The position numbers and the translations under genes were made by a program. The notes under the pieces are model-generated. The model worked only from the letters and a program-made list of their open reading frames with translations, did no database searches and was not told the origin of the DNA. From a virus, in the IMG/VR virus record IMGVR_UViG_3300050821_004371, positions 1 to 64,000 of that record: a DNA stretch of 64,000 bases. One strand, written 5' to 3'. This document shows, in pieces, positions 1,892 to 54,383 of this stretch (positions within the stretch are counted from its first letter, which is position 1; each line of letters starts with the position of its first letter).

Positions 1892-4033
1892 CTACGCCAC
1901 GTCACCAAAACCCACGCCCCCCGGCGTTCCCTCGGTTTCCTCGGAACGGGCCGAAGATTCTACAGCGAACCTCATGAGGTCGCGTTTAATACGCCCCTGA
2001 GTATCTTCGTCCGCCTGCTGAGATTTCAGTTGAGCTTTTTGATCGTTAAGCTGCATCTGTGTCTGTAGCGGGCCTTGCTGTTGCTGCTGAAGTTTCTGTT
2101 GTCTACGGGCTTCCATCTGCGGAGTCAATGGCTTAATCAAGTCGCGGCGATCTTTCCAGTCGCTCGCCATCATAACCATATCGAGCAGCGTCAACTGGTC
2201 AACGTAGTAACCTTGGTCAGCCAAGAATTCCAAGAACTGCGGGTTTGCCAAGAACTGTTCGAGCAGGACTAGGCTCTGCGCCATAGTCTTTTTTGCTGAC
2301 AAGCTAGCGCCCGCGAGTACCTCGAAGGTTACTTTGCCGTTGTGATATTCCTGCATCCCGTCTACTTTTATTGTTTTATTAGGATCGGCGGGATCAACAT
2401 CTTGGTCGAAAGACGCCAGATAGTCTTTCCCCAACTCGTCGCCTAGAATGTCCTTTATCTCTTTATCCGACAGGTACGTGAAAATAAGTTCGTCTAGAAT
2501 ATACAGCCAAGGAAGGAACACTTGATCCAAGAAAGCGTCCAGAGGGCCATCTAGCCGCGTGGCGGACGCTTGAGCGAGATTATTAGCGCCCGTAGCCGAG
2601 CGCCCCATTCCGTTACGAGGGCCAGCAGAAGAACCCTGCACCAGAGCTTGATCAGCGCCCGTCGTGCTCTCGGTATTGGCTTCAGAATTTTGTAGCGCGG
2701 CCCAGGTTTCTGCGGGCACTTTCGGCTGTTCGAGTAATTTGTACGCCTTATCCACTTCGCCATCGACAGATACGATCTTTCCGATAGAAGTGCGGATCAT
2801 CTGCGTCGGGCTATTAGAATCTCTTGCCCGCAGATACACCGGGTTAACGCCAAAACTCAGAATCTTGAGAATCGAGTTGATCGTGCCTTGATCGACACGC
2901 TGGTTTTGCCCGACCGTAAGGCCGATGCCCATGCCGTAGAAGGCTTTCGGGCGATTCCACCAGTTGGCGGACAAGAAATTGATCTTCTTGAATTCGTTTT
3001 CCGCACTGTAAATTGTGATCTTGCGATTGACGACGATGATCTTTCGTTTCTTGTCAACGTACTCCAGAACTTCAAGCTCTTGCGCCAGCGGGTCGTTGCT
3101 CGAAATAATCGTCTTCTCTTGCGCGTGGTGAACAACTCCAACCGTAGTGTTCGTCTGATCCGTTCGTAAAGTGCTAGGCGTCATCGACGCTTCCATAGGA
3201 GGGGCCCAGAGTTCTTTTAATTTATCGTCCGACCAATACGCGCCCCAAGTCCACCCAGGTAGCGGCTTTCCATTCTCATCGACGTTAGCGTCTTTCAAGT
3301 CTTTTAGAGCGTAGAAATCCAGGAAGCGGCGGTCGATTACGTGCTTCGCTTCTCGGATATCCCCTACGTCCAAAGTTGCATCGATCAAGACATTCCCTAA
3401 TGGCCGAGACTCAAAGAAAGGAATGTAGCAAGTTCTTTCAGTCCACTTAATTGTGGGAGGAGCATCGGAATGAATTGTCTCGGAACCGCCCGCAGAGTCG
3501 GAAGTTTTGACGGAGTTTGTTATACGGCGGGGAATCTTTTTTGTGACCCGCTTAATCCCCCATTTCCAAATGCCCGTGCCAAGGAAACAAAACTGTTCCA
3601 AACCCCATTTTACTTCTCGCTTAAAATTACATTCGTCCAGCATCACAGACATGACCGTAGTTTTTTCGTCTACAGTTTTTTGTGACGTGCCGGGGCGCGG
3701 GCGAAGAACCATCGGGGGGTCCTCGAAAAATATCCCGGCATATAGCTTCGGGACAACCGAATTCACCACCTTAGCCACGGTGAACCTCTGCACGTTAGGC
3801 TCTAAGGTGTATGAATTTTCGAACACAGTCAGGGGGCGCGGCGCTTGAAATAGAAGATCAGAATCTCTCCATAAAAGTGCCCATTGTTTGCTTTGAATAA
3901 ACGCTTCGTCAATTACGGCGCACCCAACTACAAGGGCAGTTGTATCCTCTGCGGTCTTGAGATCACCTTGGCTGGTGAAATCGTTCGCGACGAGAACTTT
4001 GTTCGGGTTGCCCTCTGTGGGGATTAGCGCCAT
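1892..4033 (-). CDS. Portal protein (podovirus-type)
   Basis: 713 aa, directly after the terminase; NWWNRPKAFYGMGIG motif; Gln-rich coiled C-terminus. Confidence 0.8.
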   Translation of the reverse strand: MALIPTEGNPNKVLVANDFTSQGDLKTAEDTTALVVGCAVIDEAFIQSKQWALLWRDSDLLFQAPRPLTVFENSYTLEPNVQRFTVAKVVNSVVPKLYAGIFFEDPPMVLRPRPGTSQKTVDEKTTVMSVMLDECNFKREVKWGLEQFCFLGTGIWKWGIKRVTKKIPRRITNSVKTSDSAGGSETIHSDAPPTIKWTERTCYIPFFESRPLGNVLIDATLDVGDIREAKHVIDRRFLDFYALKDLKDANVDENGKPLPGWTWGAYWSDDKLKELWAPPMEASMTPSTLRTDQTNTTVGVVHHAQEKTIISSNDPLAQELEVLEYVDKKRKIIVVNRKITIYSAENEFKKINFLSANWWNRPKAFYGMGIGLTVGQNQRVDQGTINSILKILSFGVNPVYLRARDSNSPTQMIRTSIGKIVSVDGEVDKAYKLLEQPKVPAETWAALQNSEANTESTTGADQALVQGSSAGPRNGMGRSATGANNLAQASATRLDGPLDAFLDQVFLPWLYILDELIFTYLSDKEIKDILGDELGKDYLASFDQDVDPADPNKTIKVDGMQEYHNGKVTFEVLAGASLSAKKTMAQSLVLLEQFLANPQFLEFLADQGYYVDQLTLLDMVMMASDWKDRRDLIKPLTPQMEARRQQKLQQQQQGPLQTQMQLNDQKAQLKSQQADEDTQGRIKRDLMRFAVESSARSEETEGTPGGVGFGDVA

Positions 4034-4052: not shown

Positions 4053-5909
4053 TTAATAAAGTCCCGCGTCGGCGATGGGATCACGATCCGGCATTTGAGG
4101 AATCCCGCCCTGCATCGCCAGCACTTGCCCGTCTTCAACTTGCTTCGCGAACGGCCCAAGCCCGTAAATTAAATCTCGTCGAAGTCTTTCAACTCTGTCC
4201 GTAACATTTACGGGCAACATCGGCTGCGTCTCTGCGAAATTCTGGAAGTGGTTCACGAGCAGGCTCAGGCTACAAACAATGTCCGTAAACGTCCCTTTAG
4301 GGAACGCCTCAAGCTCGTTGTAGAGTTCTTCAAGGCCCGCCATTGCTTTCCAGAAGTACAAGCGCCCGTCACCAAGCAATCGGCATGCAGGCTTCGCCTT
4401 GACTTCCTTGCTGTTAGCCTTCGAACCCTTCCCGAGCGATACGAATTCAAACGGAACGATGATTCTGAAGCGTTCCATCTCGCGGCGGATTTCCGAGCTT
4501 AACCATCGGGCACCCATCGAATCTTCGACAGCCACGCGGCGTGGTTTCCACTTGTGCGCGAAACTCGCCATGACGCCCGGAAGTTCATATTCCCCAAATC
4601 GCCCGCGAACCATGTCGATAATGTAAATCCCGGACGACGTGAATAGCCCCGCGATTCCAACCGTATATTTCGCACCCTTTTGCTCGCTATAAGCCAAGTC
4701 CCAGGCTTCAAAAGTAATTCCTTGTTGTGGAAGCGTATCAACTGTTCGGGCGACCATCAATTCGCGACGGAACTTGGTCTCGAACGATTTGTTCAGGTCA
4801 AGGAAAAATTGGCTGTAGTACGTTGCAGTATCGCCCGTCTTGTTGGCTTCCGCGTACTCCGTTTTGAGAACAGACAATGTTAACCGCTCGGGGAACCACA
4901 GAGTAATCATGTGGTCTTCGAGCAAGTCGGGCGTTCTATCTTCAAACTCCGGCTTGATGATTCCTGCCGGATGCGCCAAGACCTTGACCATCGCGGGCTG
5001 CCCGTTCCGAGCCCGTTTTTCTTCGTCCTTGACCGTGGCCGTTAAGTTATCGTCTTGGTGATACGGCGTACCGATTCTGTCTTTGTACCCGTACGGCTCG
5101 CACAACTTTCGGGCCATGGCAATTTCGCGATTGATGCTCGCGATCCGATCTTTGTTCTGCGTATTCTCGGCGGTCGTTCCGTCATCGATCTTCAAAAGAT
5201 CGGTGTGAGTACCAGTCGTGTTCTTCCCGAGCGACGTGGCGCGAATCGTGGGTCCAGCAATATCCTTGGACTTTCGGGCGGGCGTTATCCATTCAGGCTG
5301 TTCTCCAGGCTTCGATTCACAGTGCTCGGGGAACAAGATTTGGATAAGCCGCAGCTTGCCCGCAAATTCGTGATCCGCATCGAATACTTTCGGGTTACCG
5401 ATCTCGTACGGGCCTTCCCACGCTTTCTTCTGGTCTTTGTCCTCAATGGCCTCCAGCGTGAAGTGTCCTTTAATCACGCCCGTGAATTCCTCAGCGAGCG
5501 AGACCGTACCCGTCATAATGTTGATACGTATCGAAGGCCAGCACAGAACCCATTGGACGCAATCGACAATATCGGCAGTCGATTTGAACCCGCCTCGGGG
5601 GAGGAACAACAAGCGGTCGTGAAGACCCTTATCAAACTCCGCAAATACTTTAAAACTCTTGGCCGAAGGGTCTTTGAGAACGAAGAAGCCTTCTTTTTCG
5701 GGCGTTGAGAACAGTTCCCGATGGCAATCCGCAAACTGCCGATACCCGAGAATCTCTCGGGCAAGCCAGTAACCGTCCGTCTGGCACCGATGCCGAAGCG
5801 CAAGCCCGTCTTTAATCAGATCGTGCCCGTACTCTGCCTGAACCTGATACCGATACTTAGTCCAGTAAAGGGCTAGATCGTCTTTCTGTTTATCGGTCAG
5901 AGCTTGCAT
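4053..5909 (-). CDS. terL: Terminase large subunit
   Basis: Walker A-like LPRGGFKST, Walker B LLKIDD, IGTPYH, nuclease motifs AWDLAYS, VAVED, ELEAFP..TD. Confidence 0.9.
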   Translation of the reverse strand: MQALTDKQKDDLALYWTKYRYQVQAEYGHDLIKDGLALRHRCQTDGYWLAREILGYRQFADCHRELFSTPEKEGFFVLKDPSAKSFKVFAEFDKGLHDRLLFLPRGGFKSTADIVDCVQWVLCWPSIRINIMTGTVSLAEEFTGVIKGHFTLEAIEDKDQKKAWEGPYEIGNPKVFDADHEFAGKLRLIQILFPEHCESKPGEQPEWITPARKSKDIAGPTIRATSLGKNTTGTHTDLLKIDDGTTAENTQNKDRIASINREIAMARKLCEPYGYKDRIGTPYHQDDNLTATVKDEEKRARNGQPAMVKVLAHPAGIIKPEFEDRTPDLLEDHMITLWFPERLTLSVLKTEYAEANKTGDTATYYSQFFLDLNKSFETKFRRELMVARTVDTLPQQGITFEAWDLAYSEQKGAKYTVGIAGLFTSSGIYIIDMVRGRFGEYELPGVMASFAHKWKPRRVAVEDSMGARWLSSEIRREMERFRIIVPFEFVSLGKGSKANSKEVKAKPACRLLGDGRLYFWKAMAGLEELYNELEAFPKGTFTDIVCSLSLLVNHFQNFAETQPMLPVNVTDRVERLRRDLIYGLGPFAKQVEDGQVLAMQGGIPQMPDRDPIADAGLY

Positions 5910-28346: not shown

Positions 28347-28498
28347 CATGCGTAAAACGATCCTGCTCCTTCTCACGCTAGTCATGCTGGTTAACTTCGG
28401 GTTTGCTTCGGGCGTCCGCCGTCATTCGGGTGCCCGAAGATCAATCCGGAAAACGTACACGATCCATAAACCTGCCCGTAGACATCAGAGGAGATAAC

Positions 28499-29146
28499 AT
28501 GAAGTTTGAAATCAAAAATCGTTGGACAGCAGAAGTAATTTTCAGTTCGGATTCCGTAGATTTGCGGGCGTCCGTAACTGCGGCAGTCAAAACTGGGGCG
28601 GACTTGCGGTCGGCGAACTTGCGGTCGGCGGACTTGCGGTCGGCGGACTTGCGGTCGGCGGACTTGCGGTCGGCGGACTTGCGGTCGGCGAACTTGCGGT
28701 CGGCGAACTTGCGGTCGGCGGACTTGTGGTCGGCGGACTTGTGGTCGGCGAACTTGTGGTCGGCGAACTTGCAGTCGGCGGACTTGCGGTCGGCGAACTT
28801 GCGGTCGGCGAACTTGCAGTCGGCGGACTTGCGGTCGGCGAACTTGCGGTCGGCGAACTTGACCAAAGCACAACTACCCGCGCCTACAATGGTTCTTATG
28901 GCTTCGTGGGGAAGCGTATCAGCGGAGCTGTGCGCCGATCTAATGATGTACGACGCCTCTTGCCACCCGAATCAAAATGCCTTTGACAAGTGGGCAGCAG
29001 GCGGACCTTGCCCGTATGAAGGAGTCAATGTTCAGCGAGCTTGCAATTTCAAAGAACAGAAAGAACTGTGGGGAAAAGGAAAGTTCCGCAAACCGATCAA
29101 TTTAATGCTTCGCTTGTTCAAGGAAAAGGGTATCAAATTTGAGTAA
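28499..29146 (+). CDS. Pentapeptide repeat protein
   Basis: GAGGAG RBS, MKFEIKNRW then A(D/N)L(R/W/Q)S x17. Confidence 0.85.
   Translation: MKFEIKNRWTAEVIFSSDSVDLRASVTAAVKTGADLRSANLRSADLRSADLRSADLRSADLRSANLRSANLRSADLWSADLWSANLWSANLQSADLRSANLRSANLQSADLRSANLRSANLTKAQLPAPTMVLMASWGSVSAELCADLMMYDASCHPNQNAFDKWAAGGPCPYEGVNVQRACNFKEQKELWGKGKFRKPINLMLRLFKEKGIKFE
28598..28861 (+). repeat. 15-bp coding tandem repeat, about 17.6 copies
   Basis: GCG(G/A)ACTTG(CGG/TGG/CAG)TCG units. Confidence 0.95.
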
Positions 29147-52403: not shown

Positions 52404-52462
52404 GACGGGGCGTGTCTAGACGAGACTACACTAGACAGGACGTGACAAGACATGACAAGAAC
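52404..52462 (+). repeat. GAC-NN pentamer array 1a (11 units plus GAAC tail); candidate guide RNA
   Basis: GACGG GGCGT GTCTA GACGA GACTA CACTA GACAG GACGT GACAA GACAT GACAA GAAC. Confidence 0.85.
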
Positions 52463-52476
52463 TTTGATTTTTGCTA

Positions 52477-52519
52477 GACTAGACATGATTCGACCCGACG
52501 AGACCGGACAAGACGAGAA
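52477..52519 (+). repeat. GAC-NN pentamer array 1b (8 units)
   Basis: GACTA GACAT GATTC GACCC GACGA GACCG GACAA GACGA GAA. Confidence 0.85.
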
Positions 52520-52528
52520 AGGCCAAAA

Positions 52529-53380
52529 GTGAACAGCGAAGCGACGACCTTAAATCATCTGACCGAAATTGAAACCATGCTCCAAGACTACGAACCTATA
52601 GTCAAGCAGAGCATGTTGATTGACGGACAGGCTCGGTATGTAACTTGGGATTTCCGCAAAACCGCGCACGAAACTATTGAGCTTCTTCAGATCACCGATA
52701 TTCAGTTCGGGCACAAACAGTGCGACGAACAGAAATTGCACGAATACTTGTCGTGGGTCTTGGCCGCCGATAATCGCTACATTCTGCTTGTTGGCGATTT
52801 GATTGACGCGGGGCACCAATTGTCCAAGGGAAGTTGCTTCGAGCAGATTGGCGATCCGCAGACCGAAGTTTGGCGGCTTGTAGAAATTCTCGCCCCGCTT
52901 CGGCACCGCATTCTTGGGTATGTCGGCGGCAATCATGAGCGGCGTACGATCCCGACCTTCGGAGATGCTGGGAAGAACATCGCATCCATTTTGCGGATTC
53001 CGTACAGCCCTGGCAAGCAGCACATCGACATCTTGTTCGGGGATCATAAACCGTTCAAGATCACTCTCTGGCATGGTGGGGGAAGCGGCGGGACAAAAGG
53101 CGCTATCGCTAACACGGTATACCGCCTGATGATGCAGGCGGACTCTCAACTGTACCTTCTTGGACACCTTCACCAAGCCGTTGTGTTGCCCGATGCTCGC
53201 GAAACCAGAGACGGGAAAGGCGGGATTAAAATCACTAAGATCATGGGCGCGATGGGCACATCGTTCTTAAAGCATTATGGGACGTACGCCGAAGTAATCA
53301 TGGGAACCCGCCCGCAGACAATTATGATGGCTCGTGCTATAATCGAAAAGAACGGACATTGGGAGTTGACTTTACGCTAG
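52529..53380 (+). CDS. Calcineurin-like metallophosphoesterase
   Basis: TDIQFG, GDLID, GNHE, WHG, GHLH. Confidence 0.85.
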   Translation: MNSEATTLNHLTEIETMLQDYEPIVKQSMLIDGQARYVTWDFRKTAHETIELLQITDIQFGHKQCDEQKLHEYLSWVLAADNRYILLVGDLIDAGHQLSKGSCFEQIGDPQTEVWRLVEILAPLRHRILGYVGGNHERRTIPTFGDAGKNIASILRIPYSPGKQHIDILFGDHKPFKITLWHGGGSGGTKGAIANTVYRLMMQADSQLYLLGHLHQAVVLPDARETRDGKGGIKITKIMGAMGTSFLKHYGTYAEVIMGTRPQTIMMARAIIEKNGHWELTLR

Positions 53381-53434
53381 ACTCGTCACGACGCGACGCG
53401 ACGTGACATGACTGGACAAGACATGACAAGAACC
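53380..53434 (+). repeat. GAC-NN pentamer array 2 (10 units plus GAACC tail)
   Basis: GACTC GTCAC GACGC GACGC GACGT GACAT GACTG GACAA GACAT GACAA GAACC. Confidence 0.9.
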
Positions 53435-53626
53435 AATCATAGCGGATTCTTAAAGGGGCTGGAAGCTCAAGCCCAAAAGTTGATTCGGGAAGTGAAGCGG
53501 GAATCGGGGGTCAAAAAGCCCGGAGATAAGCCTTTGCTTATTGTACCGCCCGATCTCTCATTGCCCGAACGACAAACAATTTCTGGCGGGGCGAGATTAG
53601 TTCGCCCGCCAAACGATGTTTCGTGA
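53408..53626 (+). CDS. Small ORF between arrays 2 and 3 (start uncertain)
   Basis: 72 aa; its ATGs come from array units and its stop overlaps array 3. Confidence 0.35.
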   Translation: MTGQDMTRTNHSGFLKGLEAQAQKLIREVKRESGVKKPGDKPLLIVPPDLSLPERQTISGGARLVRPPNDVS

Positions 53627-53689
53627 CCGGACTGGACACGACGCGATTAGACAGGACAGGATTTGACTAGACCGGACATGACAAGAACC
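53625..53689 (+). repeat. GAC-NN pentamer array 3 (12 units plus GAACC tail)
   Basis: GACCG GACTG GACAC GACGC GATTA GACAG GACAG GATTT GACTA GACCG GACAT GACAA GAACC. Confidence 0.9.
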
Positions 53690-53731
53690 AGATTGTACAA
53701 AAGCTAAATTCAACCGCTCAAGGAGAGCAAA

Positions 53732-54310
53732 ATGAAAACAGCAAAAGTACGCCTGAAGTCAGCATCCCCGTATGCCCAAGGACGGCATTACGCAAACGAA
53801 GTTCCTAAGCTTAACAAGGAAGGCGCGGACGCCTACGAGCAGCGCACTTGGGTCAACCGCTTGCACACCACGACCGAAGGCAAGGTTTTGATTCCGCCCT
53901 TCGCGTTCAAGAACGCTTTAGATGATGCCGCCAAGTTCCTCGGCGAGCAGATTCCGGGCAAGGGAAAGTCAACGTACACAAAACATTTTCAGGCAGGCGT
54001 CATGGTGCTGGACCCGATGGTTCTCAAGACGCATAAGGACGATGTTCGCAAGGAAGCCCGATTCGTGCCCGCAGATGGCAAGCCCGGAAGCGGCAAGCGG
54101 GTTATGAAGTATTTCCCTGTGATCGACTCGTGGGAAGGTGAGGTCGAATTTCTCGTGCTAGACGATACAATCACGTTGCCCGTGTTGGAGCACCATTTGA
54201 AGCAAGCGGGGCAGTTCATCGGCCTCGGCGTATCTCGCCCGCGTAATCGTGGCGTATATGGGCGGTTCATCGTGGAAAAGGTGGAATGGAAGGATTCTGC
54301 AACAGTTTAA
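53732..54310 (+). CDS. Stand-alone Cas7/RAMP-like RNA-binding protein
   Basis: AAGGAG RBS; N-terminal strand VRLKSASPY, GKVLIPPFAFKNALDDAA (cf. RAMP IPgSslKGalR), C-terminal Gly loop FIGLGVSRPRNRGVYGRF. Confidence 0.7.
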   Translation: MKTAKVRLKSASPYAQGRHYANEVPKLNKEGADAYEQRTWVNRLHTTTEGKVLIPPFAFKNALDDAAKFLGEQIPGKGKSTYTKHFQAGVMVLDPMVLKTHKDDVRKEARFVPADGKPGSGKRVMKYFPVIDSWEGEVEFLVLDDTITLPVLEHHLKQAGQFIGLGVSRPRNRGVYGRFIVEKVEWKDSATV

Positions 54311-54314
54311 GCGA

Positions 54315-54383
54315 GACGGATCGGGACGCGGCATGGCTTGACTTGATTTGACACGATACGACTTGACGAGACTTGACACGAGG
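54315..54383 (+). repeat. GAC-NN pentamer array 4 (13 units)
   Basis: GACGG ATCGG GACGC GGCAT GGCTT GACTT GATTT GACAC GATAC GACTT GACGA GACTT GACAC GAGG. Confidence 0.88.

What the first reader, a model, noticed from the sequence alone, without database searches (positions are those of the whole stretch)
53732..54310. Minimal solo Cas7-like RAMP protein in a phage replication arm
The 192-aa protein shows the RAMP landmarks in order: first strand L..xSP, IP...KNAL helix, a thumb-like FVPADGKPGSGKRV insertion, and a terminal GLG..R...G.YGRF loop. No other cas gene is in the window. It could be a guide-RNA filament subunit, or a decoy Cas7 that poisons host Cascade/Csm complexes.
Basis: partly seen in the sequence, partly recalled or inferred. 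Interest (0 to 1): 0.75.

Follow-up and report, generated by a model that had tools for sequence, protein, structure and literature searches.

The report
Phage VIPR guide-RNA system, GAC variant
The 192-aa gene is a Vipr protein, the small Cas7-like subunit of the phage RNA-guided DNA-silencing system VIPR described in 2026, and it sits among five guide arrays built on GAC/NN instead of the usual GGY/NN, so it is a new member of a known kind.

Summary

The gene belongs to a family published in 2026. It is homologous to the solved SUSP1 Vipr protein (PDB 36pp; E 1.3e-3 alone, 9.4e-10 as a profile). Five period-5 arrays on the same strand surround it (52419-54383, 51 units, GAY constant, NN uninformative). 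No such array occurs elsewhere in the 91-kb phage genome or in shuffles. This is a VIPR locus: Vipr protomers coat a vrRNA and present the NN dinucleotides to read double-stranded DNA.

The "guide-RNA filament subunit" reading is supported. The "decoy Cas7" reading is not.

Three features differ from the canonical system:
- The constant triplet is GAY, not GGY. A later preprint already lists GAC/NN arrays.
- The accessory gene found beside vipr in 73 of 80 relatives is absent.
- The arrays abut gene junctions of an exonuclease gene, a conserved 67-aa ORF and recA.

No target was found, and RNA expression could not be tested. This scan's own first-stage notes flagged the same arrays on this genome.

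The parts
53732..54310 (+). vipr gene: a 192-aa single-RRM RAMP (Cas7-like) protein with a thumb (residues 111-124) and a G-loop (164-179).
52419..52462 (+). Array A: 8 pentamer units (7 GAC, 1 CAC) plus a terminal GAAC. It ends in the shared 14-nt GACATGACAAGAAC and is followed by a T-rich stretch.
52477..52522 (+). Array B: 8 units (7 GAC, 1 GAT). It runs into GAAAGG, the ribosome-binding-like sequence before the GTG start of the exonuclease gene.
53380..53433 (+). Array C: 10 units (9 GAC, 1 GTC) plus GAAC. It starts at the last base of the exonuclease stop codon. Its last units contain the ATG of orf67. It ends in GACATGACAAGAAC.
   Evidence: A promoter-like site at 53315-53343 lies upstream (consensus match only).
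53625..53688 (+). Array D: 12 units (10 GAC, 2 GAT) plus GAAC. It overlaps the TGA stop of orf67 and ends in GACATGACAAGAAC, 44 nt before the vipr start.
54315..54383 (+). Array E: 13 units (8 GAC, 2 GAT, 2 GGC, 1 ATC). It starts 5 nt after the vipr stop and runs into GAGG, the ribosome-binding-like sequence of recA.
53423..53626 (+). orf67: a small ORF between arrays C and D, conserved in close relatives. It is a candidate locus-specific accessory protein of unknown function.
   Evidence: Three metagenomic proteins of 66-67 aa are 81-84% identical, with one in-frame indel. One lies on a 1563-nt contig, the same length as the contig of the 94%-identical Vipr P0002. No Pfam, PHROG or PADLOC match.
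53585..53610 (+). GC-rich hairpin at the 3' end of orf67, 14 nt before array D. It may be a processing or termination element.
   Evidence: Fold of 53570-53700: -35.1 kcal/mol, z -3.13, 0 of 200 shuffles fold as well. The role is inferred.
52529..53380 (+). Metallophosphoesterase / DNA-repair-exonuclease-like gene bracketed by arrays B and C. It is probably an ordinary replication or recombination gene rather than a VIPR accessory.
   Evidence: PF00149 E 1.9e-5. phrog_7339 'DNA repair exonuclease' E 3e-25. A homologue occurs in only 1 of 80 relatives' loci, and there 3 kb from vipr.

Best explanation
This is a VIPR (Viral Interference Programmable Repeat) locus in a complete 91-kb tailed-phage genome. 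The 192-aa protein is a Vipr, a minimal single-RRM RAMP. By homology, its protomers should polymerise one per pentamer along transcripts of the five flanking arrays, hold each constant triplet, and expose the variable NN dinucleotides. Those dinucleotides would then read double-stranded DNA of a competing mobile element with one skipped base per unit and block its transcription. What is shown here is the fold, the homology to a solved Vipr, and the array anatomy with its restriction to this locus. Also shown are strand polarity and NN hypervariability in relatives. What is inferred is transcription and processing of the arrays, filament formation, the 1-nt-skip rule, and silencing of a rival element. 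The locus is a non-canonical member: its constant triplet is GAY rather than GGY, it lacks the accessory gene usual for its clade, and its arrays have no structured tail. Three arrays instead share a 14-nt end.
For: 1. Homology to a solved Vipr.
- The single sequence hits PDB 36pp 'SUSP1 Vipr protein' at E 1.3e-3 over residues 94-182, covering thumb and G-loop.
- A 35-sequence profile raises this to E 9.4e-10, with no other credible hit.

2. RAMP fold.
- Model pLDDT is 93.5.

3. Arrays.
- There are five period-5 arrays, all on the + strand, within 52419-54383.
- None occurs elsewhere in the 64-kb window or the 91-kb genome, and none in 20 shuffles.
- The 51 units have G at position 1 in 49, A at position 2 in 47, and a pyrimidine at position 3 in all 51.
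- Positions 4 and 5 carry only 0.17 and 0.02 bits.

4. Family-wide linkage.
- 63 of the 80 IMG/VR relatives' loci have period-5 arrays next to vipr.
- The stricter scan found GGC-type arrays only on the vipr strand.

5. Guide-like variation.
- Two near-identical relatives with GAC arrays (L004, L005) keep their flanks and every GAC.
- They differ at nearly every NN and in unit number.

6. Published mechanism for the family.
- vrRNAs co-purify with Vipr, silencing follows a 1-nt-skip rule, and vrRNAs target rival phages and satellites (10.64898/2026.04.26.720920).
- Filament and triplex structures are solved (10.64898/2026.04.26.720927).
- GAC/NN arrays beside Vipr-like folds are already listed (10.64898/2026.10.21.760802).

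7. Context.
- The record is a virus with direct terminal repeats and 100% estimated completeness.
- It encodes a portal, large terminase, DNA polymerase, primase-helicase, Erf and RecA.
Against: - No target was found. There is no self-match above chance under any skip rule.
- Exact 1-nt-skip patterns of guides C, D and E have no hit in IMG/VR, and E has none in GTDB genomes.
- The one genome hit for guide D is at chance expectation and puts the skipped base at codon position 2.
- In SUSP1, changing GGY to GAY was among the motif perturbations that abolished silencing. This Vipr must therefore recognise its handle differently.
- The SUSP1 residues that read G1 and G2 (D177, W178, R138) correspond here to V167, S168 and F128.
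- No RNA data could be obtained.
- The accessory gene of this clade is missing.
- No structured tail, hammerhead or Rfam family is present.
Confidence: 0.85

Rival explanations
1. The system acts as a VIPR with a nuclease arm. The metallophosphoesterase/exonuclease gene bracketed by arrays B and C serves as the accessory (vap-like) effector. Targets would then be degraded rather than only silenced, as proposed for VIPR types III-V.
For: The exonuclease-like gene lies inside the array cluster. The clade's usual accessory gene is absent. The discovery paper reports nuclease or helicase accessory genes in some types.
Against: A homologue occurs in only 1 of 80 relatives' loci, and there 3 kb away from vipr. 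The gene fits the surrounding replication and recombination module of Erf, RecA, ligase and endonuclease VII. It has no PADLOC match.
Confidence: 0.1
2. The protein is a decoy Cas7 (anti-CRISPR). It would insert into or titrate host Cascade/Csm complexes or their crRNAs, and the arrays would be unrelated or serve only as a sponge.
For: The protein has a Cas7-like fold, sits in a phage, and has no cas partners.
Against: The protein has its own strand-specific arrays, whose constant triplet changes along the Vipr tree in relatives. It is homologous to a Vipr shown to be an RNA-guided DNA binder. Sequence identity to the matched Cas7/Csm3 chains is only about 5-23%. The host and its CRISPR type are unknown.
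Confidence: 0.03
3. The arrays act at the DNA or mRNA level in cis. They could be iteron-like protein-binding sites, or translational operators at gene junctions through which the protein regulates the exonuclease gene, orf67 and recA. In this view they are not trans-acting guides.
For: The arrays overlap stop codons, ribosome-binding-like sequences and the orf67 start codon. No trans target was found.
Against: The hypervariable NN between near-identical relatives is what guides show, not operators. In relatives the neighbouring genes differ while the arrays persist. A cis effect could also coexist with guide function.
Confidence: 0.05

Closest known systems
SUSP1 / Pseudomonas fulva type II VIPR systems (bioRxiv 10.64898/2026.04.26.720920 and 10.64898/2026.04.26.720927; PDB 36pp)
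   Same: Both have a ~20-kDa single-RRM RAMP with thumb and G-loop, with detectable sequence homology (profile E 9.4e-10). Both have arrays of 8-13 pentamer units with a constant triplet and hypervariable NN on the gene's strand, upstream and downstream of vipr. Both are phage-encoded with no cas genes.
   Different: The constant triplet here is GAY, not GGY. The residues matching SUSP1 D177/W178/R138 are V167/S168/F128. There is no ~40-nt pseudoknot tail; three arrays share a 14-nt end instead. There is no vap gene. Protein similarity is low and detectable only in the C-terminal half.
Non-canonical VIPR-like arrays (GAC/NN, CAC/NN, WGT/NN, TGH/NN) reported from a genomic language model survey (bioRxiv 10.64898/2026.10.21.760802)
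   Same: These are fixed-triplet/variable-dinucleotide pentamer arrays with GAC as the fixed triplet, next to a Vipr-like fold.
   Different: That report is computational and gives cluster-level logos. I could not check whether this locus is among its 6,318 sequences. Absence of the accessory gene and the gene-junction placement are not described in the text I read.
Cas7 of type VII and type III CRISPR-Cas (Csm3, Cmr4, Cas7-11 domains)
   Different: There is no CRISPR array, no Cas1, and no other cas gene found. There is no Pfam RAMP match. Identity is only about 5-23%. The repeat period is 5 nt, not the 6-nt crRNA segments bound per Cas7 subunit.
Pseudomonas phage vB_Pae_LESphi2 gene P21_9 (OQ594955.1), annotated 'hypothetical protein'
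   Same: This is the only match in the cultured-phage collection: 27.7% identity over 95% of the query. It has pentamer arrays immediately upstream.
   Different: Its arrays are canonical GGC/NN with longer tails. It lies beside the cI/cro region of a temperate phage.

Membership tests
VIPR / Vipr protein family | Sequence homology to an experimentally characterised Vipr | tested here: met
   PDB 36pp SUSP1 Vipr: phmmer E 1.3e-3 over residues 94-182; profile of 35 homologues E 9.4e-10.
VIPR / Vipr protein family | Minimal single-RRM protein of about 20 kDa without a second RRM | tested here: met
   192 aa. The model shows one beta-alpha-beta core plus a thumb.
VIPR / Vipr protein family | Flanking tandem pentanucleotide arrays (9-16 units) with a constant triplet and hypervariable NN, on the gene's strand | tested here: met
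   Five arrays of 8, 8, 10, 12 and 13 units. Positions 1-3 carry 1.5-1.7 bits each and positions 4-5 carry 0.17 and 0.02 bits. The arrays are unique to this locus in 91 kb. NN is hypervariable in the GAC-type relatives L004 and L005.
VIPR / Vipr protein family | Constant triplet is GGY (canonical code) | tested here: not met
   The triplets are GAC 41, GAT 5 and GGC 2 of 51 units. Papers allow 'a related consensus' and list GAC/NN variants. This makes the locus a non-canonical member rather than excluding it.
VIPR / Vipr protein family | Adjacent accessory gene (vap) | tested here: not met
   73 of 80 relatives' loci carry a ~165-aa same-strand gene beside vipr. A profile of it finds nothing in this genome, best E 0.79. 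In SUSP1, vap1 enhanced protection, and the papers describe only Vipr plus one vrRNA as required.
VIPR / Vipr protein family | Conserved 3' tail after the repeat tract | tested here: inconclusive
   Arrays A, C and D share the end GACATGACAAGAAC. Arrays in the relatives inspected end in 2-3 units with NN = AA, mostly followed by a T-run. No significant structure was found around the arrays themselves, and there is no Rfam match.
VIPR / Vipr protein family | Arrays are transcribed into ~100-nt RNAs that co-purify with the protein | not testable with these tools
Only consensus promoter-like sites were found.
VIPR / Vipr protein family | Guides match rival mobile elements under the 1-nt-skip rule and do not target their own genome | tested here: inconclusive
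   No self-target was found; the best match is 12-19 of 16-26 positions, the same as under the other skip rules. No exact external target was found. One chance-level hit was discounted. Only exact matching was possible on the large collections.
CRISPR-Cas Cas7 (Csm3/Cmr4/type VII Cas7) | Encoded with a CRISPR array and other cas genes | tested here: not met
   No CRISPR-like repeats, no Rfam CRISPR repeat family, no Cas1 or Pfam RAMP hit in the genome, and no PADLOC hit.
CRISPR-Cas Cas7 (Csm3/Cmr4/type VII Cas7) | Cas7 RAMP fold | tested here: met

The most novel reading that the evidence does not exclude
The constant triplet may be a fast-switching 'handle' that keeps each phage's Vipr from being loaded with rivals' guides or decoy vrRNAs. 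Within this one Vipr clade (over 50% identity) the triplet is GGC, CGC, GAC, CTC, GTT or AGT. It changes at least 13 times on the tree, including between well-supported sister lineages. This locus would then be a naturally orthogonal GAY-reading Vipr. Its altered G-loop (V167/S168) and small residue 11 on strand 1 would point to the specificity code. Its arrays, embedded in gene junctions, might additionally let Vipr binding tune translation of the exonuclease gene, orf67 and recA.
Probability: 0.25. Interest if true: 0.6.

Novelty: new member of a known kind. Interest (0 to 1): 0.4.

Why it matters
VIPR is a newly described RNA-guided DNA-recognition system that has been proposed as the ancestor of CRISPR RAMPs. 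This locus adds a complete-genome example of the GAY/NN variant, a handle change that inactivates the SUSP1 system. It is therefore a natural starting point for mapping how Vipr reads its constant triplet and for building mutually orthogonal VIPR tools. It also shows that a Vipr can persist without the clade's usual accessory gene. For genome annotation, it explains a 'hypothetical protein' and five odd microsatellite-like tracts in one step.

Tried and rejected
**Family libraries**
- Pfam, PADLOC and Rfam gave nothing for the protein or the arrays.
- PHROGs gave only phrog_4652, of unknown function.

**Target search**
- No self-match above chance in the 91-kb genome under skips 0-2.
- Exact 1-nt-skip patterns of guide D (12 and 10 units), E (11 units) and C (10 units) had 0 hits in IMG/VR.
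- Guide E had 0 hits in GTDB genomes.
- Guide D (10 units) had 1 hit in a Cytophagia MAG methyltransferase-like ORF. About one hit is expected by chance, the next two units mismatch, and the skipped base falls on codon position 2. I rejected it.
- Two guides from GAC-type relatives, used as a positive control for the rule, also had 0 hits.
- 118 guides scored against 0.77 Mb of fetched loci showed no excess for skip 1. The skip rule therefore could not be tested here.

**Close relatives**
- The metagenome scan returned nothing above 55% identity.

**Specificity determinants**
- Mutual information between Vipr alignment columns and triplet class was dominated by phylogenetic noise.
- Only residue 11 stood out, and the G-loop positions are not strictly predictive. 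L042 has GAC arrays with the consensus R-F.

**Not attempted**
- I sent no complex-prediction job. The filament needs RNA, which the tool does not take.

Full report
**Observation**

ORF 53732-54310 (+) encodes a 192-aa protein. An alignment of 35 homologues (56-94% identity) shows the glycine-rich loop to be invariant: G160, G164, G166, R169, P170, G174, G177, R178 and F179. The thumb residues G116, G119, R123 and V124 are invariant too. The family is large. It has 1,178 clusters at 90% identity with E <= 1e-3 and 1,068 clusters at 50% identity, almost all unnamed metagenomic proteins of about 185 aa.

**Fold**

An AlphaFold2 model built on that alignment has mean pLDDT 93.5 and pTM 0.87.
- Foldseek against the PDB ranks type VII Cas7 first (8z4j_J, E 2.6e-9, TM 0.59), followed by Csm3, Cmr4 and Cas7-11 domains.

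**Identity**

A sequence search of the PDB returned one meaningful hit: 36pp, 'SUSP1 Vipr protein', at E 1.3e-3 over residues 94-182. A profile of the 35 homologues raises this to E 9.4e-10.

Vipr is the protein of VIPR systems, described in 2026 (10.64898/2026.04.26.720920).
- It is a minimal RAMP encoded mainly by phages and prophages.
- It is flanked by arrays of 9-16 pentamers in which a constant GGY alternates with hypervariable NN.
- The array transcripts (vrRNAs) co-purify with Vipr.
- The complex binds double-stranded DNA through the NN dinucleotides with one skipped base per unit and silences transcription.
- Natural guides target rival phages and satellites.
- Cryo-EM shows one protomer per repeat in a right-handed filament. 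The GGY bases are held by the RRM sheet, thumb and G-loop (10.64898/2026.04.26.720927).

**The arrays**

The window has five such arrays, all on the + strand:

| Array | Coordinates | Units |
|---|---|---|
| A | 52419-52462 | 8 |
| B | 52477-52522 | 8 |
| C | 53380-53433 | 10 |
| D | 53625-53688 | 12 |
| E | 54315-54383 | 13 |

- Of the 51 units, 41 begin GAC, 5 GAT and 2 GGC.
- Positions 1-3 carry 1.5-1.7 bits each. Positions 4 and 5 carry 0.17 and 0.02 bits.
- No array of this kind occurs elsewhere in the window, on either strand, or in the rest of the 91,482-nt genome. None occurs in 20 shuffles.
- Arrays A, C and D end in the same 14 nt, GACATGACAAGAAC.
- Arrays B and E run into ribosome-binding-like sequences of the next gene.
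- Arrays C and D begin in the stop codons of the preceding ORFs.

The scan's other first-stage notes on this genome describe the same arrays and the shared end. I had reached both independently, and they agree with my reading.

**Relatives**

I fetched 80 IMG/VR loci encoding 51-63%-identical proteins.
- 63 of the 80 have period-5 arrays directly up- and/or downstream of vipr. The stricter scan found GGC-type arrays only on the vipr strand.
- The constant triplet is GGC in 38 loci, CGC in 8, GAC in 5, CTC in 6, GTT in 2 and AGT in 2.
- In the loci inspected, arrays end in two or three units with NN = AA, mostly followed by a T-run.
- Two near-identical loci with GAC arrays (L004, L005) have identical flanks and keep every GAC. 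They differ at almost every NN and in unit number. This is the signature of exchangeable guides, now seen for the GAC type.
- A maximum-likelihood tree needs at least 13 triplet changes. It places different triplets in well-supported sister lineages: L070 GGC with L064 GTT at 100/98, and L063 CGC with L004/L005 GAC, with L007 GGC as sister.
- GAC arose at least twice. The window's protein sits on a long branch without a supported sister.

**How this locus differs**

1. *The handle.* The discovery paper tested a GGY-to-GAY substitution in SUSP1 and reports that perturbing the GGY motifs abolished silencing.
   - The SUSP1 residues that read G1 and G2 (D177, W178, R138) align here with V167, S168 and F128.
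   - The clade consensus at those positions is R, F, F.
   - The V-S pair is shared with the 94%-identical relative P0002.
   - Residue 11 on strand 1 is A or T in all GAC, GTT and AGT rows, but V or I in 21 of 23 GGC rows.
   - These are leads, not a code. L042 has GAC arrays with the consensus G-loop.
   - A later preprint already lists GAC/NN, CAC/NN, WGT/NN and TGH/NN arrays next to Vipr-like folds: 21 clusters, 6,318 sequences (10.64898/2026.10.21.760802). The GAC handle is therefore not a new discovery.
2. *The accessory gene.* 73 of 80 relatives have a ~165-aa same-strand gene beside vipr, with a weak winged-helix hit. A profile of it finds nothing in this genome.
   - In its place, between arrays C and D, lies a 67-aa ORF (53423-53626). 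It is 81-84% conserved in three metagenomic proteins.
   - Its start codon lies inside the shared array end. Its 3' end forms a strong hairpin (z -3.1).
3. *Placement.* The arrays are interleaved with an exonuclease-like metallophosphoesterase gene and recA. Neither is linked to vipr in relatives.

**Context**

The record is a virus with direct terminal repeats, a 97-nt terminal overlap and 100% estimated completeness. It encodes a portal, large terminase, DNA polymerase, primase-helicase, Erf, RecA, RNA-ligase-family and endonuclease VII proteins. It has one Vipr, no Pfam RAMP or Cas1 match, and no CRISPR repeats.

**What could not be shown**

No target was identified, and expression could not be examined. 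The mechanism therefore rests on homology plus anatomy.

**Verdict**

The 'guide-RNA filament subunit' reading is supported through membership of the VIPR family. The 'decoy Cas7' reading is unsupported. The locus is a new, non-canonical (GAY/NN, vap-less) member of a known kind. Its main added value is as a natural handle variant, and as evidence that the handle switches often within one Vipr clade.

Noticed in passing
L001-L080 (IMG/VR relatives of the Vipr gene): Within one Vipr clade (51-63% identity to the query) the constant triplet of the pentamer arrays is GGC (38 loci), CGC (8), GAC (5), CTC (6), GTT (2) or AGT (2). The tree needs at least 13 switches, some between well-supported sister lineages.
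   Followed up: partly
L004:3808-3982 and 4560-4634; L005:3848-3982 and 4560-4629: Two near-identical loci keep their flanks and every GAC but differ at nearly every NN and in unit number. This shows directly that GAC-type arrays carry exchangeable guides.
   Followed up: yes
for example L042:4642-5166, L031:3362-3850, L055:3685-4179: A ~165-aa same-strand gene lies next to vipr in 73 of 80 relatives, often between arrays. It has a weak sub-threshold winged-helix (PF01035) hit and is the likely accessory (vap) gene of this clade. It is absent from the window's genome.
   Followed up: partly
window 28403-29146 (tandem repeat 28597-28861): A 15-bp repeat of 17.7 copies encodes a pentapeptide-repeat protein with the unit A-[DN]-L-[RWQ]-S.
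   Followed up: partly
L112 (Pseudomonas phage vB_Pae_LESphi2, OQ594955.1) 2030-3085: Gene P21_9, annotated 'hypothetical protein', is a 27.7%-identical Vipr homologue. Canonical GGC/NN arrays lie upstream, beside the cI/cro region. This looks like an unannotated VIPR locus in a cultured phage.
   Followed up: partly
window 53408-53626: The shared array end GACATGACAAGAAC contains an ATG. At array C it starts the conserved 67-aa ORF. At arrays A and D it opens short frames of 26 and 9 codons, which I read by eye. The invariant C-terminal third of orf67 coincides with a GC-rich hairpin, so RNA structure may contribute to its conservation.
   Followed up: partly
genome G000: 1-97 and 91385-91482: The start of the contig is repeated at its end (97 nt). 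The record is classed as having direct terminal repeats and being 100% complete, so the window is the first 64 kb of a complete 91-kb phage genome.
   Followed up: yes
L111:3626-3654 (uncultured Cytophagia MAG contig CAYUVM010000101.1): This is the only exact 1-nt-skip match to 10 units of guide D. It lies in a 768-aa methyltransferase-like ORF. About one hit is expected by chance and the skipped base falls on codon position 2, so I discounted it.
   Followed up: yes
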